64,000 bases of DNA from an uncultured candidate division Zixibacteria bacterium (lineage in GTDB: Bacteria > Zixibacteria > MSB-5A5 > GN15 > FEB-12): NCBI GenBank assembly GCA_963735035.1, contig CAVTJJ010000004.1, positions 96,001 to 160,000 of the forward strand, given 5' to 3'. The position numbers were made by a program. This document shows, one piece after another, positions 42,001 to 51,000 of the stretch (positions are counted from its first letter, which is position 1; each line of letters starts with the position of its first letter).

Positions 42001-45000
42001 GTTCGGCCCGCGCGGTAACTGCGGCAATGGCTGCCCGAGCGGTCAGCTCCGTGTAATCGGCATGGCCGAAACCAACGACGGTCCGAATCACCCCGGCTGT
42101 AACATTGGTCACGTTGGCTATGCTAACACCTTCCCGGTCATTCTGGCCAATATGCGGTTCCTGGTCTCCAACGACCGTACCCTGAATTGCCAGTTTGTGC
42201 CGATTCGGTTCTACTGGTACGACTGCGGCGACAACGTCCTGTCGAACTACAATGGTTCCGAACTGTATCTCTCCACCCAGGTTTATGATTTCACGGAATA
42301 CGACAATCCGTTCCTCGGTGGTGCCATGGGCAATACGGCCAGCGGCTTCCCGACCTACACCGGTGCTCAGGCCGATTGCTTCTATGAGAATGTTCAGCTT
42401 CACAAAGTTGCGAAGCAGAACGTTGACTTCCAGAATGGTGGAGTGGACATCATCTGCTCTAACCTGATTGATGCTCCTGGCGACGTGAACATTAACGGCA
42501 TCGCGTACGAAATTGCCGATGCGGTCATGTTCACCAACTACTTCATCACTGGTTTGTCAGCTTTCGGTACCCATATCGAAGGTTCAATCGCTGCGACGGA
42601 CGCCAACCAAGACGGTATCACGCTGTCGGTTGCCGACCTGGTCTACTTGATCCGGGTAGTCGTTGGCGATGCTCAGCCGTATGCGAAGCTCAGCCCGATG
42701 GCTGCTCGTATCACGGTTGGCGACGGTGTATTTAATGTTAACCAGGCGATGGGCGCCGCTTACGTTGTCATGGCTGGCAATGTGACCCCGACCCTGTTGG
42801 CTGGCAACATGGAAATGCAGTACGGCTTCAACGGCCAGAACACGAACATCATTGTCTGGTCGCGTGAAGGCAATAGCTTCAATGGCGACTTCCTGCGCGC
42901 CAATGGCGAAGTCATCAAGACCGAATTTGCCGCCGCTAACGGTGCTCCGGTTATTGCTGACGTGATGCCGGCTAATTACGAACTGCATCAGAACTACCCG
43001 AACCCGTTCAACCCGTCGACGACCATCAAGATCGACGTGCCGAACAAGGGTGCGGATTGGAAGCTGAACATCTACAACGTTACCGGTCAGCTCGTCCAGA
43101 GCTTCTCCGGCGTTGCCACGGGCTTTGATGCCGTGACTTGGGATGCTTCTAACGTCTCCTCAGGCGTCTACTTCTACAAGCTGACGTCCGGTGACTACAG
43201 TGCCACGAAGAAGGCCGTCCTTCTGAAGTAAAGCCGTTTCATTTGGCTTGAACCCCCGGAGAGGTTAACCCTTTCCGGGGGTTCCAATTCGAAGCACGAG
43301 GAGAATTGAGTATTGAGCGAAGGTTAAAGAGACAAAGAACAAAGACTCTTGAGTCAAATTTGAGGTTTGAAAGTGGCCATTTTGATGCGGAAAACAGCAG
43401 TTTTCGCGTGACAAAGCGGCTCTTTTTGTATATAATGTGGTGCTCTGTTGGGATGTACTTACCTGCTTCGCCGGGTGTTGCCATACTGCGGAAGGTTGCA
43501 TATACCTGCGGAAGAATGACAGACAACCTCACTATGTTGCTCGCCGCCAGGAAAAGGAGCGTCGGATAGCCTAACTGGTATCGATGAGTTAGACTGGCTG
43601 TTGAGAACATAAGTCCTTACCGTTTCTACTCTTAAACGGATGTTCTTCAGAGAGACTTACTCTGGGTAGAGCCGGACAAGAGTTCGCCAGGGAGAGGCGA
43701 ACCGACTTGCGGCATAGGACTGGTTCCGGTCTGATTATTGCTCGGAACTGGATTGGCTAAATGCCGACTTGGTAAGTCACGCTATGTTAAGAAAGTACTT
43801 TGCAGTAGTAATCGGTACGATGGTGCTGCTTTTGGCAGTGCAGTCGATATTGCACGCCGAGCCGGCAGCGGCCGCCTATGCAATTTATGTCGATTCTGTG
43901 CAGGCCGGCCCGGGTGAAGATATAGCGGTGCGTTTCTTCCTGACCAATGAGACAGCACTTACATCTCTAAGTGTACCTTTAACATACAATCCTGCGCTGG
44001 TGACGCTGAAATCCGTAAGCTTCTCCGGCTCACGAGCGCAACACCTTGCCAACAAGATAGTTATGCCGTCAGACCTGACATCGGCCAACGGTCATTTCAT
44101 GGTAGCTGCTTTTCAGTGGCTCGAGGATCCTGTTGCAGCGGGCGACGGACTGCTTTTCACCGCTGTGTTTGGTGTCAATTCCCAGGCGATCCCCGGCTCT
44201 TTTACCGCGATTGACACGCTCTTTTACGCCCCGGGAGGTTTTCTAGAAGTTGTCCGAGCCGATATTCCGGGAGGGATACGTCCGGAGTTCAGGAAAGGTA
44301 GAATCTTGGTTGGAGAGCCAAACCGAGCGCCCATTTTCACGATGCTGCCAGATCAGTATATTCTTGAAGGCGACAGCTTGAAGCTGACCGTTCGGGTGAC
44401 CGACCCGGACGGTGATCGCGTTACTCTGGCGGCCACTTCGAAACCGATTGGCGCGACGTTTATCGATAACGGCGACGGCACGGCGCAGTTTGTGTGGCGG
44501 CCCGATTACGTTGGTCCGAATTCGGCTGACGGTTCGCCGGTTAAGGTCCGGTTCTGGGCGGGCGACGGTGATTTGTCGAGTCAGATCGAGCTGACTGTCA
44601 ATGTCATCAACTGTAACCGTCGTCCTGAGATCACGGCGCCCATCAATGTGGCGGTAGAAGCGGGCGAGACGCTGGATTTTTCTCTGTCGGCCGTCGATCC
44701 CGATTTTGAGGCGGTGCACTGGAGTTGGTCAGGTCTGCCGCAGGGAGCGGTCTTCAACGACGCCAACCCGGGACACCTGACGTGGACATCTGCCGTTACC
44801 GATTCCGGATCGTTCGCGCTTCACTTTGTAGCCATTGACCCTCAGGGACTGGCCGACACCGCTCTTGTTACCACCCACGTGCAGGCGGTGGCGCTCTATA
44901 CCATCCGACTTGATTCGACGCAGGCCATGCCGAATGAGACTATCAAGTCTCATGTCGTTCTCGACAACAAACTTCCGGTCGCCGGATTCAACCTCCTGAT

Positions 45001-48000: not shown

Positions 48001-51000
48001 AGGTTCCAAGGAAATGCTTTCCGACTCCGGCCTGGTAGTGGTCGACTCCGTCGGTGATGTCAACTTGGACCGATACATAGACGTGGCCGATGTGGTCAAT
48101 ATTGTGTCGTATGTTATCGGCACGCATACGCTGGTGCCGAGACAGTTCGAAGTCGCCGACGTGATCCGTAACGACTCGGTGAACGTTTTCGACCTGGTGG
48201 CCGATGTGAACATGATCTACGGTATCGCCCTGGCGCAACCGGCCCCGCCGACTCCGGACCAGACCGCCGTACTCACCGTCTCCTATAATGATATAGCGGG
48301 CGGATCATCGGACGTCCTCAAAGTCAGCTCCAAGATTTCTGAAGAAGTGGCGGGTGTGCAGCTTCAGTTGAACTATGATCCGACCACGGTCAGCCTGGGT
48401 ACTCCCCGCCTGACGCAGGACAACGCCGACTACGCCCTTAATTCGTACGACAACGGTCAGGGTCGTATGCGGATCCTGCTTTACAAGTTCGCGCCTTACA
48501 ATTCCGGCGAATTCATGCAGGCGGGTGACGTTCAACTGGTCGAGATTCCGATCACTGCCTATAAGAGCGTGAAGGCGAATGACAAGACCCGTATCCGCCT
48601 GACCGAAGCGCTTATGTCCACGACCGTGGCCGGGGCGCTGACGGTAGAGGGGATAGACAAGCCTCTGCCGCTGACTTTCTCTTTGAAGCAGAATTATCCG
48701 AATCCGTTTAATCCGACTACTACTATCAAATTCGAGGTTGGCGTTTCCGATGTGGGCGCTTTACAGCAGGATGTCAACCTCGACGTCTATAACGTCCTCG
48801 GTCAACATGTGAGCAGCTTGGCCGCCGGCAAATATTCCGCGGGCGCATACGAAGTTGTTTGGAACGCTACGAACAAGGATGGTCGTCGCGTTGCCAGTGG
48901 TGTGTATCTGTACCGACTAAACGTCGGCGGAGAGTCAATGACCAAGAAGATGCTATTCCTTAAGTAATAGCTCTCGGAGGAATCGTTAGGATGAATCGAT
49001 TCGTAAGAATTATCTTTGGTACCGCGCTGCTCTTGCTTTTGGCCGGCGCGGCCACCGCACAATCGTTCCCGCCGGTGCTAAATCCGATCGGGGCGCAGTC
49101 TGTCAATGAAAACCTGCTGTTGTCGTTTACCGTGTCGGCTTCCGACAGTGATTTGACCACGCCTGTGCTTACCACCTCGACTGCTTCCCACCGGCGCCGG
49201 GTTTACCGATAACCTCAACGGCACCGGCAGCTTCACCTGGACCCCGACTTATGCCCAGGCGGGTTCATATAATGTGACTTTCTACGCCACCGATGCTGTC
49301 ACAACCGACGTGGACTCGGAGTTGGTCGTAATCACAGTGAACGATGTCCCTCAGGCGCCGGTCGTGAGCAATATCCCGGACCAGACTGTCGCCGAAGGTT
49401 CAACTTTCACTACTGTCAATCTCGATAACTACGTCACGGACGCAGACAATAGTGCGGCGGAGATGACCTGGACTTACTCCGGTAACACGGCTCTGACGGT
49501 CAGCATCGATGTCAACCGGGTCGCCACAATTACGATTCCGGACGTCAACTGGAATGGTGCTGAGACGATTACGTTTACGGCGACTGATCCGGTCTGCTGT
49601 TCTCATCTGATCCGGCCACGTTCACGGTCACGGCGGTCAACGATGCACCGGTGGTAGCCGACATCCCGAATCAGACTGTCGCTGAAGGCTCGACTTTCAC
49701 GACGATCAGTCTTGATAGCTACGTGACTGACGTTGACAACACACCCTCTCAGATGACCTGGACTTACTCAGGAAACACCGTCACTTACCGTAAGCATCGA
49801 TGTCAACCGGATCGCTACGATCACGATTCCGGATGCGAACTGGAATGGCTCTGAGACGATCACTTTCACTGCTACCGATCCGGGCCTTCTGTTCTCATCC
49901 GACCCGGCGACGTTTACGGTCACAGCGGTCAATGACGCCCCGGTCGTAGCTGACATCCCGAACCAGACTATCGCCGAAGGCTCGACCTTTACGACGATCA
50001 GTCTCGACAGCTACGTTACGGACGTCGACAACACTTCGGCCCAGATGACCTGGACCTACTCCGGTAACACGGCGTTGACGGTGAGCATTGATGTCAACCG
50101 GGTGGCCACGATCACGATTCCGGACGCCAACTGGAACGGCGCCGAGACGATCACTTTCACCGCGACCGATCCGGGCTTGCTGTTCTGCTTCTGATCCGGC
50201 GACGTTTACGGTTACGGCAGTCAACAACGCTCCAGTGGTGGCCGACATCCCGAACCAGACTGTAGCTGAAGGATCGACCTTTACAACAATCAGTCTCGAC
50301 AGCTACGTGACCGATGTCGACAACACCGCGGCCCAGATGACCTGGACCTACTCCGGCAACACGGCTTTGACGGTCAGTATCGATGTCAACCGGGTGGCCA
50401 CGATCACGATTCCGGATGCCAACTGGAACGGCGCTGAAACGATCACATTTACTGCCACCGATCCGGGCCTGCTGTTCGCTTCTGACCCGGCCACGTTTAC
50501 GGTCACGGCCGTCAACAATGCACCGGTGGTAACTGACATTCCTGACCAGACTATCGCCGAAGGATCGACCTTCACGACCATCGCTCTCGATGGCTATGTC
50601 TCTGACGTTGACAACACCGACGCCCAGATGACCTGGACCTACTCCGGCAACACGGCTCTGACGGTCAGTATCGATGTCAACAGGGTCGCTACGATTACGA
50701 TCCTGGATGCGAACTGGAACGGCGCTGAGACGATCACGTTTACGGCGACTGATCCCGGCTTGCTCGCTTCGTCCGATGCCGCCATCTTCACGGTAACGGC
50801 GGTTAATGATGCGCCGGTAGTCACTGATATCCCGGATCAGACAATAGCAGAAGGCTCGACGTTCACGACTATCGCTCTCGACGGCTACGTCTCCGACGTT
50901 GACAACACTGATGCCCAGATGACCTGGACTTACTCTGGTAATACCGCTTTGACGGTCAGTATCAGTCCAACCAGAGTTGCCACGATCACGATGCCGGATG

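What a model noticed while it worked through the whole genome (the two positions that open the first line are those of the whole stretch)
43784..48967. Divergent, Cys-framed dockerin-like C-terminal module on 64 proteins; cohesin domains on T9SS cargo
Sixty-four proteins, about 2% of the genes, end in a module of about 90 aa (CCxGRVGDANG...PTIGDISxLID...EADINQSGG...ITIGDISxLIDYLFITGP) that no sequence library recognises. A structure alignment points to a dockerin fold. It is nearly exclusive with the T9SS tail found on 69 other proteins. Two neighbouring genes given here, and a third at C4:1510977-1512215, combine a cohesin domain with a T9SS tail. This suggests, but does not show, that T9SS-anchored cohesins display the dockerin-tagged proteins.
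Evidence so far: - jackhmmer finds 80 proteins. 64 have the full-length module at the C-terminus, and 59 of those have the CC start. 69 proteins have the T9SS-type tail, and 2 have both. - 0 of 25 copies hit Pfam or NCBIfam. A profile of them gives no meaningful PDB sequence match. - VIA-align 2: model residues 399-482 align with C. thermocellum dockerin 4fl4_A at Z 9.0, rmsd 2.2 A, 66 of 68 residues, 23% identity. - Pfam Cohesin scores 41.8, 28.7 and 23.1 bits in proteins that also have Por_Secre_tail. - SprA is present. - In a 15-paralogue family, 14 end in the T9SS tail and one in this module. - The same-genus genome has 64 matches. - No paper holds both 'Zixibacteria' and 'dockerin'.
(Added by a program. 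Inside this text positions count along the whole contig: contig position 96,001 is position 1 of the stretch shown here. "Call 12" and the like, gene names such as g00115 and contig names such as C1 are that model's own, and its searches are not shown. The text may have been shortened before it was handed on; [...] marks where a part breaks off. The agent that wrote the report below was given it as the finding of a first reader that could run no searches.)

Follow-up and report, generated by a model that had tools for sequence, protein, structure and literature searches.

The report
Disulfide-framed dockerins and T9SS-anchored cohesins
An uncultured Zixibacteria genome tags about 67 secreted proteins, many of them peptidases, with an unannotated cysteine-stapled version of the dockerin docking module and carries the matching cohesin receptor domains on outer-membrane-anchored proteins, which points to a cellulosome-like surface assembly whose binding has not yet been shown.

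Summary
My HMM finds the ~90-aa module in 67 proteins, at the C-terminus in 62. No copy passes Pfam's cut-off.

The module is a true dockerin. Its profile matches this genome's own Pfam-recognised dockerins (hhalign 99.2%, E 1.5e-19). Its model's 13 best fold matches are all dockerins. Four near-invariant cysteines and one optional, perfectly co-occurring pair frame it.

P2 and P4 each combine Pfam cohesin with a T9SS tail. SprA and PorU are present.

Corrections:
- The Cys-framed dockerin occurs across the family, in 48 of 54 genomes, not only in the genus.
- 25 ORFs carry cohesin-like domains: 11 end in a T9SS tail and 6 in the new dockerin.
- The domain directly before that dockerin on peptidases folds as a cohesin (Z 17).
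- P3 and P4 are one gene split by a frameshift.
- A T9SS-tailed cohesin scaffold was already proposed for Cloacimonadota (PMC8542988).

Binding remains untested, and the one complex prediction gave no answer. This is a new variant of a known kind.

The parts
38969..40198 (+). 409-aa secreted protein ending in a canonical dockerin (aa 344-400, nt 39998-40168). It lies directly upstream of P1.
   Evidence: Pfam Dockerin_1 scores 21.0 bits by hmmscan and 24.9 bits in the genome scan. The HMM of the genome's canonical dockerins scores 92 bits. An orthologue sits directly upstream of the P1 orthologue in L105 (Calditrichaeota MAG) and L102 (Zixibacteria MAG).
40508..43231 (+). P1, 907 aa. It has a large Cys-rich cohesin (aa 426-640, nt 41783-42427), a two-repeat dockerin-like stretch (aa 658-720, nt 42479-42667, read by eye only) and a T9SS type A C-terminal domain (aa 830-904).
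   Evidence: Por_Secre_tail scores 45.1 bits and TIGR04183 45.3 bits. Pfam Cohesin is only 15.3 bits. The domain groups with P2's second cohesin by jackhmmer. The profile A6 hits 14 PDB sequences at E<=1, 13 of them cohesins, best E 0.005.
43769..46222 (+). P2, 817 aa (the ATG at 43784 is the likely start). It has a signal peptide, a small cohesin (aa 31-185, nt 43859-44323), Ig-like domains, a large cohesin (aa 371-535, nt 44879-45373), a divergent dockerin (aa 537-598, nt 45377-45562) and a T9SS C-terminal domain (aa 734-814).
   Evidence: Pfam Cohesin scores 41.8 bits in 2 stretches; Big_9, He_PIG and Por_Secre_tail also match; TIGR04183 scores 41.3 bits. The dockerin stretch matches canonical dockerins: hhalign A9 against A3 gives 85.8%, E 5e-6. 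There are 23 orthologues in the family and full-length relatives at 37-38% identity in two Zixibacteria MAGs.
46276..47517 (+). P3, 413 aa. It is the N-terminal half of a gene broken by a frameshift, with a signal peptide and a possible cohesin (aa 21-235).
   Evidence: No Pfam family matches. A faint Cohesin hit of 14.4 bits appears in the genome scan. P3 aligns to aa 19-396 of the 887-aa orthologue in L146.
47468..48967 (+). P4, 476 aa as an ORF from 47537. It is the C-terminal half of the same gene, with a cohesin (aa 41-175), a weak dockerin (aa 173-229, nt 48053-48223), a second cohesin (aa 236-385) and a T9SS C-terminal domain (aa 387-472).
   Evidence: Pfam Cohesin scores 28.7 bits in 2 stretches, Dockerin_1 16.2 bits, Por_Secre_tail 26.4 bits and TIGR04183 31.6 bits. 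The L146 orthologue, aa 392-887, aligns in this frame from 47468.
48991..61064 (+). Giant cadherin/Big_9-like repeat surface protein in at least 3 ORF pieces. It is context for the island, not part of the cohesin-dockerin set.
   Evidence: ORFs at 49274-49657 and 50088-61064 hold the same repeats in different frames, and a signal-peptide-like start lies near 48991. A similar repeat gene follows the cohesin genes in L146.
61076..64000 (+). 1575-aa Ig/cadherin-repeat protein that runs out of the window and ends in a canonical dockerin outside it (C4:161612-161770).
   Evidence: Pfam Big_9, Cadherin_5, TIG and He_PIG match. Dockerin_1 scores 23.8 bits and the A3 HMM gives 2.6e-23.

Best explanation
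The ~90-aa C-terminal module is a derived dockerin. It keeps the two repeats, each a loop followed by a helix. It is stapled by two inferred disulfides (the N-terminal CC to one Cys in the inter-repeat linker and one at the C-terminal end). About half the copies have a third pair. In this genus both loops are lengthened, by 2 and by 7 residues.

Proposed mechanism:
- The module marks a large share of the secretome (peptidases of at least nine families, beta-propeller and beta-helix adhesin-like proteins, and many unknowns) for non-covalent capture by cohesin domains.
- Cohesins sit on proteins that end in a T9SS type A C-terminal domain, including P1, P2 and P3/P4 of the window. Such proteins would be exported through SprA and fixed to the outer membrane by PorU. 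They would act as short anchors of one to three cohesins each.
- Six peptidase-type proteins carry a cohesin directly before their own dockerin. These could extend the assembly as adaptors.

The expected result is a cell-surface, cellulosome-like assembly devoted to protein degradation and adhesion, not to cellulose.

What is shown and what is inferred:
- Shown: the homology and fold of the dockerin and the cohesins, the T9SS tails, the presence of SprA and PorU, and the domain architectures.
- Inferred: the disulfides, calcium binding, which dockerin binds which cohesin, and surface location.
For: Dockerin identity:
- hhalign of the module profile A1 (59 sequences) against A3 (15 Pfam-recognised dockerins of the same genome) gives 99.2%, E 1.5e-19, over 61 columns.
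- The AF2 model has pLDDT 89.6.
- In VIA-align wide the 13 best chains are all dockerins, Z 8.6 to 4.4, and the next chain scores Z 2.8.
- The 14 best Foldseek rows are all dockerins, but at E 0.26 or more.

Cysteine frame:
- The four framing Cys are present in 57, 59, 58 and 57 of 59 copies.
- The optional pair is present together in 30, absent together in 29 and never alone.

Cohesins on T9SS cargo:
- Pfam Cohesin scores 41.8 bits (P2) and 28.7 bits (P4), both with TIGR04183 above its cut-off.
- Of 25 ORFs with a cohesin-like domain, 11 end in the T9SS tail.

Machinery:
- PorU scores 667 bits against a cut-off of 420.
- SprA scores 531 bits against a cut-off of 200.

Tandem cohesin-dockerin:
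- The model has pLDDT 93.4.
- Its first domain matches cohesins only in the top 20 rows, Z 17.0 to 12.0, and the next row is 10.1.
- Foldseek gives E 2.8e-9 and only cohesin entries (free modules or cohesin-dockerin complexes) among the rows shown.
- That domain is homologous to P2's N-terminal cohesin type (hhalign 98.1%).

Cargo:
- 14 of 67 module proteins have a peptidase family (S8, C1, C10, M1, M4, M14, M43, M64, trypsin-like).
- 0 of 67 have a glycoside hydrolase family.
- 28 of 67 have no Pfam family.

Tail swapping: 4 paralogue groups hold members with the T9SS tail and members with the module.

Conservation:
- The module is found in 48 of 54 genomes of the family.
- The tandem was recovered over 200 or more of its 234 residues in 29 of 29 loci fetched, one per genome.

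Precedent: a T9SS-tailed cohesin scaffold with dockerin-tagged peptidases was inferred for Cloacimonadota (PMC8542988, passages read).
Against: - No binding data of any kind exist.
- T9SS cohesins are not the only candidate receptors. Six of the 25 cohesin ORFs are themselves module-bearing proteins.
- The window's cohesin proteins carry internal dockerins of another type, so they may mainly bind each other or canonical dockerins.
- The neighbouring 409-aa canonical-dockerin gene is conserved next to the P1 orthologue in a Calditrichaeota and a Zixibacteria record.
- The large cohesin-dockerin-tail cassette occurs in Ignavibacteria and Calditrichaeota records. The Cys-framed module was found in only 4 of 96 genomes of other families of the window's phylum. 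Those two lineages were not themselves searched for the module, so this is indirect evidence that those cohesins have other partners.
- P2's N-terminal cohesin was found in 37 of 54 family genomes at E<=1e-6, with 23 clear orthologues. The module was found in 48 of 54.
- The exclusivity of the two tails is expected in part, because both are C-terminal.
- The route of tail-less dockerin proteins across the outer membrane is unknown. GldM was not found with PF12081, and PorV is below its cut-off.
- The calcium loops are lengthened, so calcium binding is not assured.
- No protein has more than about three cohesins, so there is no long scaffoldin.
- The tandem model's pTM of 0.67 gives no confident cohesin-dockerin contact.
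- Counts rest on a crude ORF caller.
Confidence: 0.5

Rival explanations
1. The Cys-framed dockerins bind mainly the cohesins that sit in tandem before them on the secreted peptidases. The result would be scaffold-free oligomers or daisy chains. The T9SS-anchored cohesins of the window would serve the other dockerin types (canonical ones and their own internal ones) and would not display the Cys-framed set.
For: - The cohesin plus Cys-framed-dockerin tandem is conserved. It is full-length in 29 of 29 fetched loci from 29 genomes of the family.
- It occurs in 5 intact genes here, plus 1 split gene and 1 M14 peptidase with the large cohesin type.
- The cohesin fold is firm at Z 17.
- The canonical-dockerin gene next to P1 is conserved across phyla.
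- The large cohesin cassette occurs in Ignavibacteria and Calditrichaeota records, while the module is rare in other families of the window's phylum (4 of 96).
- About 467-aa proteins with Pfam Cohesin plus this module exist in related metagenomes, 4 among the 120 listed.
Against: - In clostridial scaffoldins a cohesin does not bind the dockerin of its own chain. This is established knowledge of cellulosomes and was not tested here.
- Only 6 of the 67 module proteins carry a cohesin, so most copies need a receptor elsewhere.
- The tandem cohesin is homologous to the small cohesin type found on T9SS-tailed proteins (98.1%), so shared specificity is plausible.
- The tandem model gives no confident inter-domain packing (pTM 0.67).
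Confidence: 0.25
2. The module is an address tag or a direct cell-surface anchor that works without cohesins. It could be a C-terminal signal for an export or attachment route alternative to the T9SS tail, or a domain that binds a surface glycan or lipopolysaccharide.
For: - The module is at the C-terminus in 62 of 67 proteins.
- It swaps with the T9SS tail among paralogues in 4 groups.
- About 85 dockerins of all types face about 30 cohesin domains.
- Dockerins without cohesin partners are widespread outside cellulosomes, as stated in PMC9012536 (passages read).
Against: - Five of the 67 proteins carry the module near the N-terminus or internally. That placement does not fit a C-terminal export signal.
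- The fold and homology are those of a protein-protein docking module.
- Cohesins are abundant and co-conserved in the same genomes.
- No secretion system is known to read a dockerin (recalled knowledge).
Confidence: 0.12
3. The module is only a stabilising, calcium- and disulfide-containing end cap with no binding partner.
For: - Thrombospondin type 3 calcium-binding repeats often precede the module.
- The cysteine frame suggests selection for stability.
Against: - The helix motifs are strongly conserved across 59 diverged copies and across genera.
- That conservation fits a binding surface, not a passive cap.
- The module's spread to unrelated protein bodies also fits a binding role.
Confidence: 0.05

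Closest known systems
Type I dockerin (Pfam PF00404), for example the Clostridium thermocellum dockerins in 4fl4, 2ccl and 3ul4
   Same: - Two tandem repeats, each a D-x-N loop followed by a helix carrying an I/L-x-D-x-x-x-L-I-D-x-L-F type motif.
- The same fold: Z 8.6-8.2, rmsd 2.1-2.3 A, 62-66 residues aligned.
- Homology through this genome's own Dockerin_1 domains.
- C-terminal position on secreted enzymes.
   Different: - It fails Pfam's cut-off in 59 of 59 copies.
- Four near-invariant cysteines frame the domain, plus an optional fifth and sixth.
- Loop 1 is longer by 2 residues and loop 2 by 7 residues in this genus.
- The cargo is peptidases and adhesin-like proteins, with no glycoside hydrolase among 67.
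- The host is a diderm of the FCB group.
Cellulosome-like complex proposed for Candidatus Stygibacter (Cloacimonadota), PMC8542988
   Same: - Dockerin-tagged peptidases (S8, C25) and other enzymes.
- A cohesin-bearing protein with a T9SS-type conserved C-terminal domain for attachment to the cell's own surface.
- Inferred from genomes only (passages read).
   Different: - That system has one 3,755-aa scaffoldin with tandem cohesins and CBM2/CBM3 domains.
- Here there are 11 short T9SS-tailed proteins with one to three cohesins each, and no CBM was seen.
- The dockerins here are Cys-framed and unrecognised by Pfam.
- Cohesin-dockerin tandems occur on the enzymes themselves.
T9SS type A cargo (TIGR04183/PF18962 C-terminal domain; anchoring by the PorU sortase)
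   Same: - P1, P2 and P4 end in this domain above the curated cut-offs.
- SprA and PorU are encoded.
   Different: - The organism is a Zixibacterium, not a member of Bacteroidota.
- The cargo here would act as a receptor for a second layer of proteins.
- Attachment to anionic lipopolysaccharide is recalled knowledge from Porphyromonas and was not tested here.
- GldM was not found and PorV is below its cut-off.
Non-cellulosomal cohesin/dockerin proteins (ANME archaea, PMC9012536; Peer et al. 2009, seen only as a cited reference)
   Same: - Many dockerin and cohesin proteins in organisms that do not degrade cellulose.
- Proteins that combine a dockerin with cohesins (passages read).
   Different: - Those domains are found by the standard libraries.
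- Anchoring there is by S-layer or other means, not by T9SS.
- No cysteine frame is reported in the passages I read.
X-module plus dockerin dyad of type II/III dockerins
   Same: A beta-sandwich domain lies directly before the dockerin at the C-terminus.
   Different: The domain here is a cohesin by fold. The top 20 rows are cohesins at Z 17-12. The one X-dockerin entry listed (4iu2) matched through its cohesin chain. Cohesin therefore fits better than X-module.

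Membership tests
Dockerin (Pfam PF00404 Dockerin_1) | Sequence match to the family model at the curated cut-off (22.9 bits) | tested here: not met
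   0 of 59 copies pass. 7 of 59 give weak matches, best E 0.01. NCBIfam was not rerun on the module.
Dockerin (Pfam PF00404 Dockerin_1) | Homology to bona fide members by profile-profile comparison | tested here: met
   hhalign of A1 against 15 Dockerin_1 domains of the same genome gives 99.2%, E 1.5e-19, over 61 columns. 13 of those places pass Pfam's cut-off.
Dockerin (Pfam PF00404 Dockerin_1) | Duplicated segment of a calcium-binding loop plus helix, with the dockerin fold | tested here: met
   The model has pLDDT 89.6 with helices at 26-38 and 69-81. The 13 best VIA rows are all dockerins, Z 8.6-4.4, followed by a gap to 2.8. The loops are 2 and 7 residues longer than in the canonical copies.
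Dockerin (Pfam PF00404 Dockerin_1) | Calcium-dependent binding to a cohesin | not testable with these tools
   This needs a binding assay with and without calcium or EDTA.
Cohesin (Pfam PF00963) | Sequence match at the curated cut-off (24.1 bits) | tested here: met
   P2 scores 41.8 bits and P4 28.7 bits. P1 scores only 15.3 bits and C4:1510977 scores 23.1 bits. The tandem domain on peptidases gave no hit at E<=1e-4.
Cohesin (Pfam PF00963) | Nine-stranded beta-sandwich cohesin fold | tested here: met
   Tested on the tandem domain of C6:38765-40654 only. The top 20 VIA rows are cohesins, Z 17.0-12.0, rmsd 2.1-3.2 A, 125-144 residues aligned. Foldseek gives E 2.8e-9. The window's own cohesins were not modelled. 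They are linked by hhalign (98.1%) and by Pfam.
T9SS type A cargo (TIGR04183 / PF18962) | C-terminal sorting domain at the extreme C-terminus, above the cut-off | tested here: met
   TIGR04183 scores 45.3 (P1), 41.3 (P2) and 31.6 (P4) bits against a cut-off of 23.
T9SS type A cargo (TIGR04183 / PF18962) | The genome encodes the translocon and sortase (SprA, PorU, PorV, GldKLMN) | tested here: inconclusive
   SprA scores 531 bits and PorU 667 bits, both above their cut-offs. A PorV-like gene next to PorU scores 91 bits, below the 250 cut-off. GldM_1st was not found. GldK, GldL and GldN were not searched.
Cellulosome | A scaffoldin with many cohesins, dockerin-borne glycoside hydrolases and a cellulose-binding module | tested here: not met
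   No protein has more than about 3 cohesins. 0 of 67 module proteins has a glycoside hydrolase family. No CBM was seen in the proteins scanned. It resembles a cellulosome in its logic, not in its substrate.

The most novel reading that the evidence does not exclude
The dockerin-tagged proteins have no outer-membrane export signal of their own. Their disulfides would form in the periplasm. There they would dock onto cohesin-bearing T9SS cargo and be carried out through SprA as a folded complex. On this reading the cohesin-dockerin pair acts as a hitch-hiking export adaptor as well as a surface tether. It would explain why paralogues swap the T9SS tail for the dockerin.
Probability: 0.07. Interest if true: 0.85.

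Novelty: new variant of a known kind. Interest (0 to 1): 0.55.

Why it matters
- **Annotation gap.** A dockerin subfamily on about 2% of this organism's genes is missed by Pfam. That share is an estimate from 67 proteins in a 3.6-Mb genome. Across public data the module profile matches 293 protein clusters at E<=1e-30 and 3,141 at E<=1e-3. Public names, where given, describe only the N-terminal domain. A dedicated model would change how the secretomes of Zixibacteria are read.
- **Biology.** The genome combines two surface-display systems: covalent T9SS anchoring and non-covalent cohesin-dockerin docking. The cargo is dominated by peptidases and adhesin-like proteins. This would make a concrete, testable model for how an uncultured sediment and soil lineage attacks proteinaceous matter.
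- **Tools.** Disulfide-stapled dockerins with partner cohesins from a Gram-negative host could give orthogonal docking pairs for surface display.

Tried and rejected
- **Complex prediction.** I ran P2's N-terminal cohesin (alignment A8, 30 rows) with the Cys-framed dockerin (A1, 59 rows). The verdict was 'no answer', with scores 0.09 and 0.10 against a mark of 0.32, and no controls were run. This counts neither for nor against binding.
- **The search for related loci with the module alignment.** It failed because the alignment had no stretch conserved enough. I replaced it with the genome search and a single-protein scan.
- **PDB sequence searches.** The module profile gave only chance-level hits, to ribosomal S8 and Cmr5. 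The tandem-cohesin profile A4 gave none.
- **Foldseek on the module alone.** The best rows were dockerins, but none reached E<=0.001.
- **X-module reading** of the domain before the dockerin. Rejected, because the fold matches are cohesins.
- **Promoter and terminator scans** of 38400-49300 were at chance level: 8 found against 7.5 expected, and 12 against 9.7.
- **Rfam** found nothing in 38000-50000.
- **Sequencing runs.** One DNA run holds 0.05 of the sampled words, and no RNA holder is listed. I did not lay it, so the P3/P4 frameshift could not be checked against reads.
- **Peer et al. 2009** is not held. I saw it only in reference lists.
- **The '15-paralogue family'** was not recovered with my clustering (E<1e-20, at least 50% coverage, tails trimmed).
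- **Not scanned for Pfam families:** the T9SS-tailed proteins other than the cohesin bearers.

Full report
**What is in the window**

The window is G000:C4:96001-160000. The genome has 3.6 Mb in 6 contigs and is rated 96.9% complete. The finding covers four same-strand ORFs plus an upstream neighbour.

- **P1** (40508-43231, 907 aa) ends in a T9SS type A tail: Por_Secre_tail 45.1 bits, TIGR04183 45.3 bits. Its Pfam Cohesin hit is only faint at 15.3 bits.
- **P2** (43769/43784-46222, 817 aa) scores Pfam Cohesin 41.8 bits in two stretches. It also has Ig-like domains and the T9SS tail (TIGR04183 41.3 bits).
- **P3** (46276-47517, 413 aa) has no Pfam family.
- **P4** (47537-48967, 476 aa) scores Cohesin 28.7 bits in two stretches, a weak Dockerin_1 at 16.2 bits, and the T9SS tail (TIGR04183 31.6 bits).
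- **The upstream gene** (38969-40198, 409 aa) ends in a canonical dockerin.

Promoter-like and terminator-like sites are at chance level, and Rfam finds nothing. ORFs on the opposite strand are short and lie inside these genes. I treat them as spurious.

**P3 and P4 are one gene**

In two Zixibacteria MAG records (L146, L102) the order is P1 orthologue, P2 orthologue, one gene of 887 or 873 aa, and then a giant repeat gene.

- P3 aligns to residues 19-396 of that single gene, and P4 to residues 418-887.
- A tblastn of the L146 protein switches frame between about 46932 and 47468.

The gene is therefore split here by a frameshift. The giant repeat gene that follows (48991-61064) is also in at least three pieces. 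I could not check either against reads.

**The module is real and abundant**

A motif scan followed by an HMM, run over my six-frame ORF set, gives these counts:

- 78 ORFs match at E<1e-3.
- 67 proteins (68 domains) match at domain E<1e-15.
- The module lies within 10 residues of the C-terminus in 62 of the 67.
- CC stands at the start in 66 of the 68 domains.

In the remaining five of the 67 proteins the module sits near the N-terminus or internally. I aligned fifty-nine copies that are less than 80% identical to each other (A1).

**The module is a dockerin**

- Pfam passes none of the 59 copies. Seven give weak Dockerin_1 matches, best E 0.01.
- A profile search of PDB sequences gives only chance hits.
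- The genome also holds canonical dockerins: 22 places at E<=0.1, 13 of them over Pfam's cut-off. They share the helix motif T-I-G-D-I-S-x-L-I-D-x-L-F with the module.
- Profile against profile, the module matches 15 of these at 99.2%, E 1.5e-19. Relative to them it carries a 2-residue insertion in loop 1 and a 7-residue insertion in loop 2.
- An AF2 model (pLDDT 89.6) returns dockerins as its 13 best rows in an all-against-representatives fold search. The scores run from Z 8.6 to 4.4, and 4fl4_A aligns at rmsd 2.2 A over 66 of 68 residues. The next row scores Z 2.8.
- Foldseek ranks dockerins first, but only at E 0.26 or more.

**The cysteine frame**

- Four cysteines are nearly invariant, present in 57, 59, 58 and 57 of 59 copies.
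- They are the CC at the start, one Cys in the inter-repeat linker and one two residues from the end.
- Two further cysteines, at reference positions 42 and 64, occur together in 30 copies and are absent together in 29. They are never found alone.

This pattern fits three disulfides. That is an inference, because I could not read distances from the model.

**Distribution**

- Against 1.84 billion representative proteins, the profile finds 3,141 at E<=1e-3, 845 at 1e-10 and 293 at 1e-30.
- In 150 other genomes of the phylum, 48 of 54 in the same family match at E<=1e-10. Only 4 of 96 in other families match, with one hit each.
- Five genomes of other genera in the family hold 72, 60, 47, 44 and 31 matches at E<=1e-8.
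- Those copies keep the CC...C...C frame but have loops of nearly canonical length.

The frame is therefore a trait of the family, and the long loops are a trait of the genus. Public names attached to near relatives say 'candidate division Zixibacteria' or 'Candidatus Zixiibacteriota'. They describe only the N-terminal enzyme, and none of the 120 listed proteins has PF00404 among its precomputed domains.

**Cargo**

Of the 67 module proteins:

- 14 have a peptidase family (S8, C1, C10, M1, M4, M14, M43, M64, trypsin-like).
- Others have beta-propeller, beta-helix, Fib_succ_major or thrombospondin type 3 repeats.
- 28 have no Pfam family.
- None has a glycoside hydrolase family.

**Cohesins**

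The Pfam scan of the genome finds 12 cohesin places, 3 of them over the cut-off. Iterated searches seeded from the window's domains find 25 ORFs. Eleven end in the T9SS tail, six end in the Cys-framed dockerin and eight have neither. Several of those eight are pieces of split genes.

I distinguish three types.

- **Large, Cys-rich type** (P1, and P2's second cohesin). It is followed by a divergent dockerin and then the tail. Its profile hits 14 PDB sequences at E<=1, 13 of them cohesins, best E 0.005.
- **Small type** (P2's N-terminal cohesin, and C4:1510977).
- **Tandem type.** This is a close relative of the small type (hhalign 98.1%). It lies directly before the Cys-framed dockerin on peptidases.

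I modelled that tandem from a C1 peptidase with 34 sequences (pLDDT 93.4, pTM 0.67).

- Its first domain matches only cohesins in the top 20 rows, Z 17.0-12.0.
- Foldseek gives E 2.8e-9.
- Its second domain again matches 4fl4_A, at Z 9.0.
- The tandem is full-length in all 29 loci fetched from 29 other genomes of the family.

P2's internal dockerin-like stretch matches canonical dockerins at 85.8%, E 5e-6. P1's stretch is read by eye only.

**T9SS**

- SprA (531 bits) and PorU (667 bits) pass their cut-offs.
- A PorV-like gene lies next to PorU but scores below its cut-off.
- GldM was not found with PF12081.
- Three secretins exist.
- I count 53 tailed ORFs. One protein has both the tail and the module.
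- Four paralogue groups mix the two tails.

**Mechanism**

Best reading, at 0.5:

- T9SS-tailed proteins with one to three cohesins are fixed to the outer membrane.
- They capture dockerin-tagged peptidases and adhesin-like proteins.
- Peptidases that carry cohesin-dockerin tandems extend the assembly.

Homology, folds, tails and machinery are shown. Pairing, calcium binding, disulfides and surface location are inferred.

Rival readings:

- Self-assembly through the tandem cohesins, with the window's cohesins serving other dockerin types (0.25).
- A cohesin-independent address or anchor tag (0.12).
- A passive stabilising cap (0.05).

The single complex job gave no answer.

**What is known**

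- A T9SS-tailed cohesin scaffoldin with dockerin-tagged peptidases was inferred from MAGs of Cloacimonadota (PMC8542988, passages read).
- Large non-cellulosomal cohesin and dockerin sets are described for ANME archaea (PMC9012536, passages read).
- No paper in the library joins Zixibacteria with dockerin or with type IX secretion.
- The 'Zixi' prefix searches returned 1 paper with 'dockerin' and 2 with 'T9SS'. I judged all three unrelated from the search listings only, where 'Zixi' occurs once in each.
- I saw no report of a cysteine-framed dockerin in the listing. That was a listing only, so this is weak evidence of absence.

**Verdict**

- The dockerin call is upgraded from suggestive to well supported.
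- The display model is plausible but untested, and it is more complex than proposed.
- This is a new variant of a known kind, with interest 0.55.

Noticed in passing
window 46276-48967: P3 and P4 are two halves of one gene of about 880 aa, split by a frameshift near 47470-47520. Orthologues in two Zixibacteria MAGs are single genes of 887 and 873 aa.
   Followed up: partly
window 48991-61064: A giant cadherin/Big_9-like repeat gene with a signal-peptide start is broken into at least three ORFs in different frames. The cause is either assembly indels in repeats or decay.
   Followed up: no
window 38969-40198; L105 3811-4950; L102 3-866: A 409-aa protein with a canonical C-terminal dockerin lies directly upstream of the P1-type cohesin gene. 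The same order is seen here, in a Calditrichaeota MAG and in a Zixibacteria MAG. This conserved dockerin-gene and cohesin-gene pair across phyla is a good candidate for a cognate pair.
   Followed up: partly
G000 C4:157076-167804 (starts at window 61076): The island continues beyond the window. A 1575-aa Ig-repeat protein with a canonical dockerin is followed by a 1233-aa protein with the Cys-framed dockerin. Next comes a T9SS-tailed paralogue of Cys-framed-dockerin proteins.
   Followed up: no
alignment A1, reference positions 42 and 64: An optional cysteine pair is present together in 30 of 59 module copies and absent together in 29, never alone. This is a clean signature of a third disulfide.
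   Followed up: yes
G000, e.g. C3:504472-506106, C6:74274-76673, C2:143863-146346: Thrombospondin type 3 calcium-binding repeats often run right up to the CC start of the module. Fib_succ_major domains recur in the same proteins.
   Followed up: no
P0215, P0048, P0238, P0241 (public metagenome proteins of about 467 aa): Relatives outside this genome combine an N-terminal Pfam-recognised cohesin with the Cys-framed dockerin in one small protein. This genome has no direct orthologue of the cohesin part.
   Followed up: partly
G000 C4:942064-954561, C4:162584-166285, C6:503090-506782, C3:188173-193458: Six paralogous proteins of about 1230-1760 aa have no Pfam family and end in a longer variant of the module with extra cysteines. 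One of them carries two modules.
   Followed up: no
G000 C6:247653-253729: The PorU sortase gene (667 bits) is followed by a 932-aa frame. That frame's PorV-like part scores only 91 bits against a cut-off of 250, so it may be a fused or divergent PorV.
   Followed up: no
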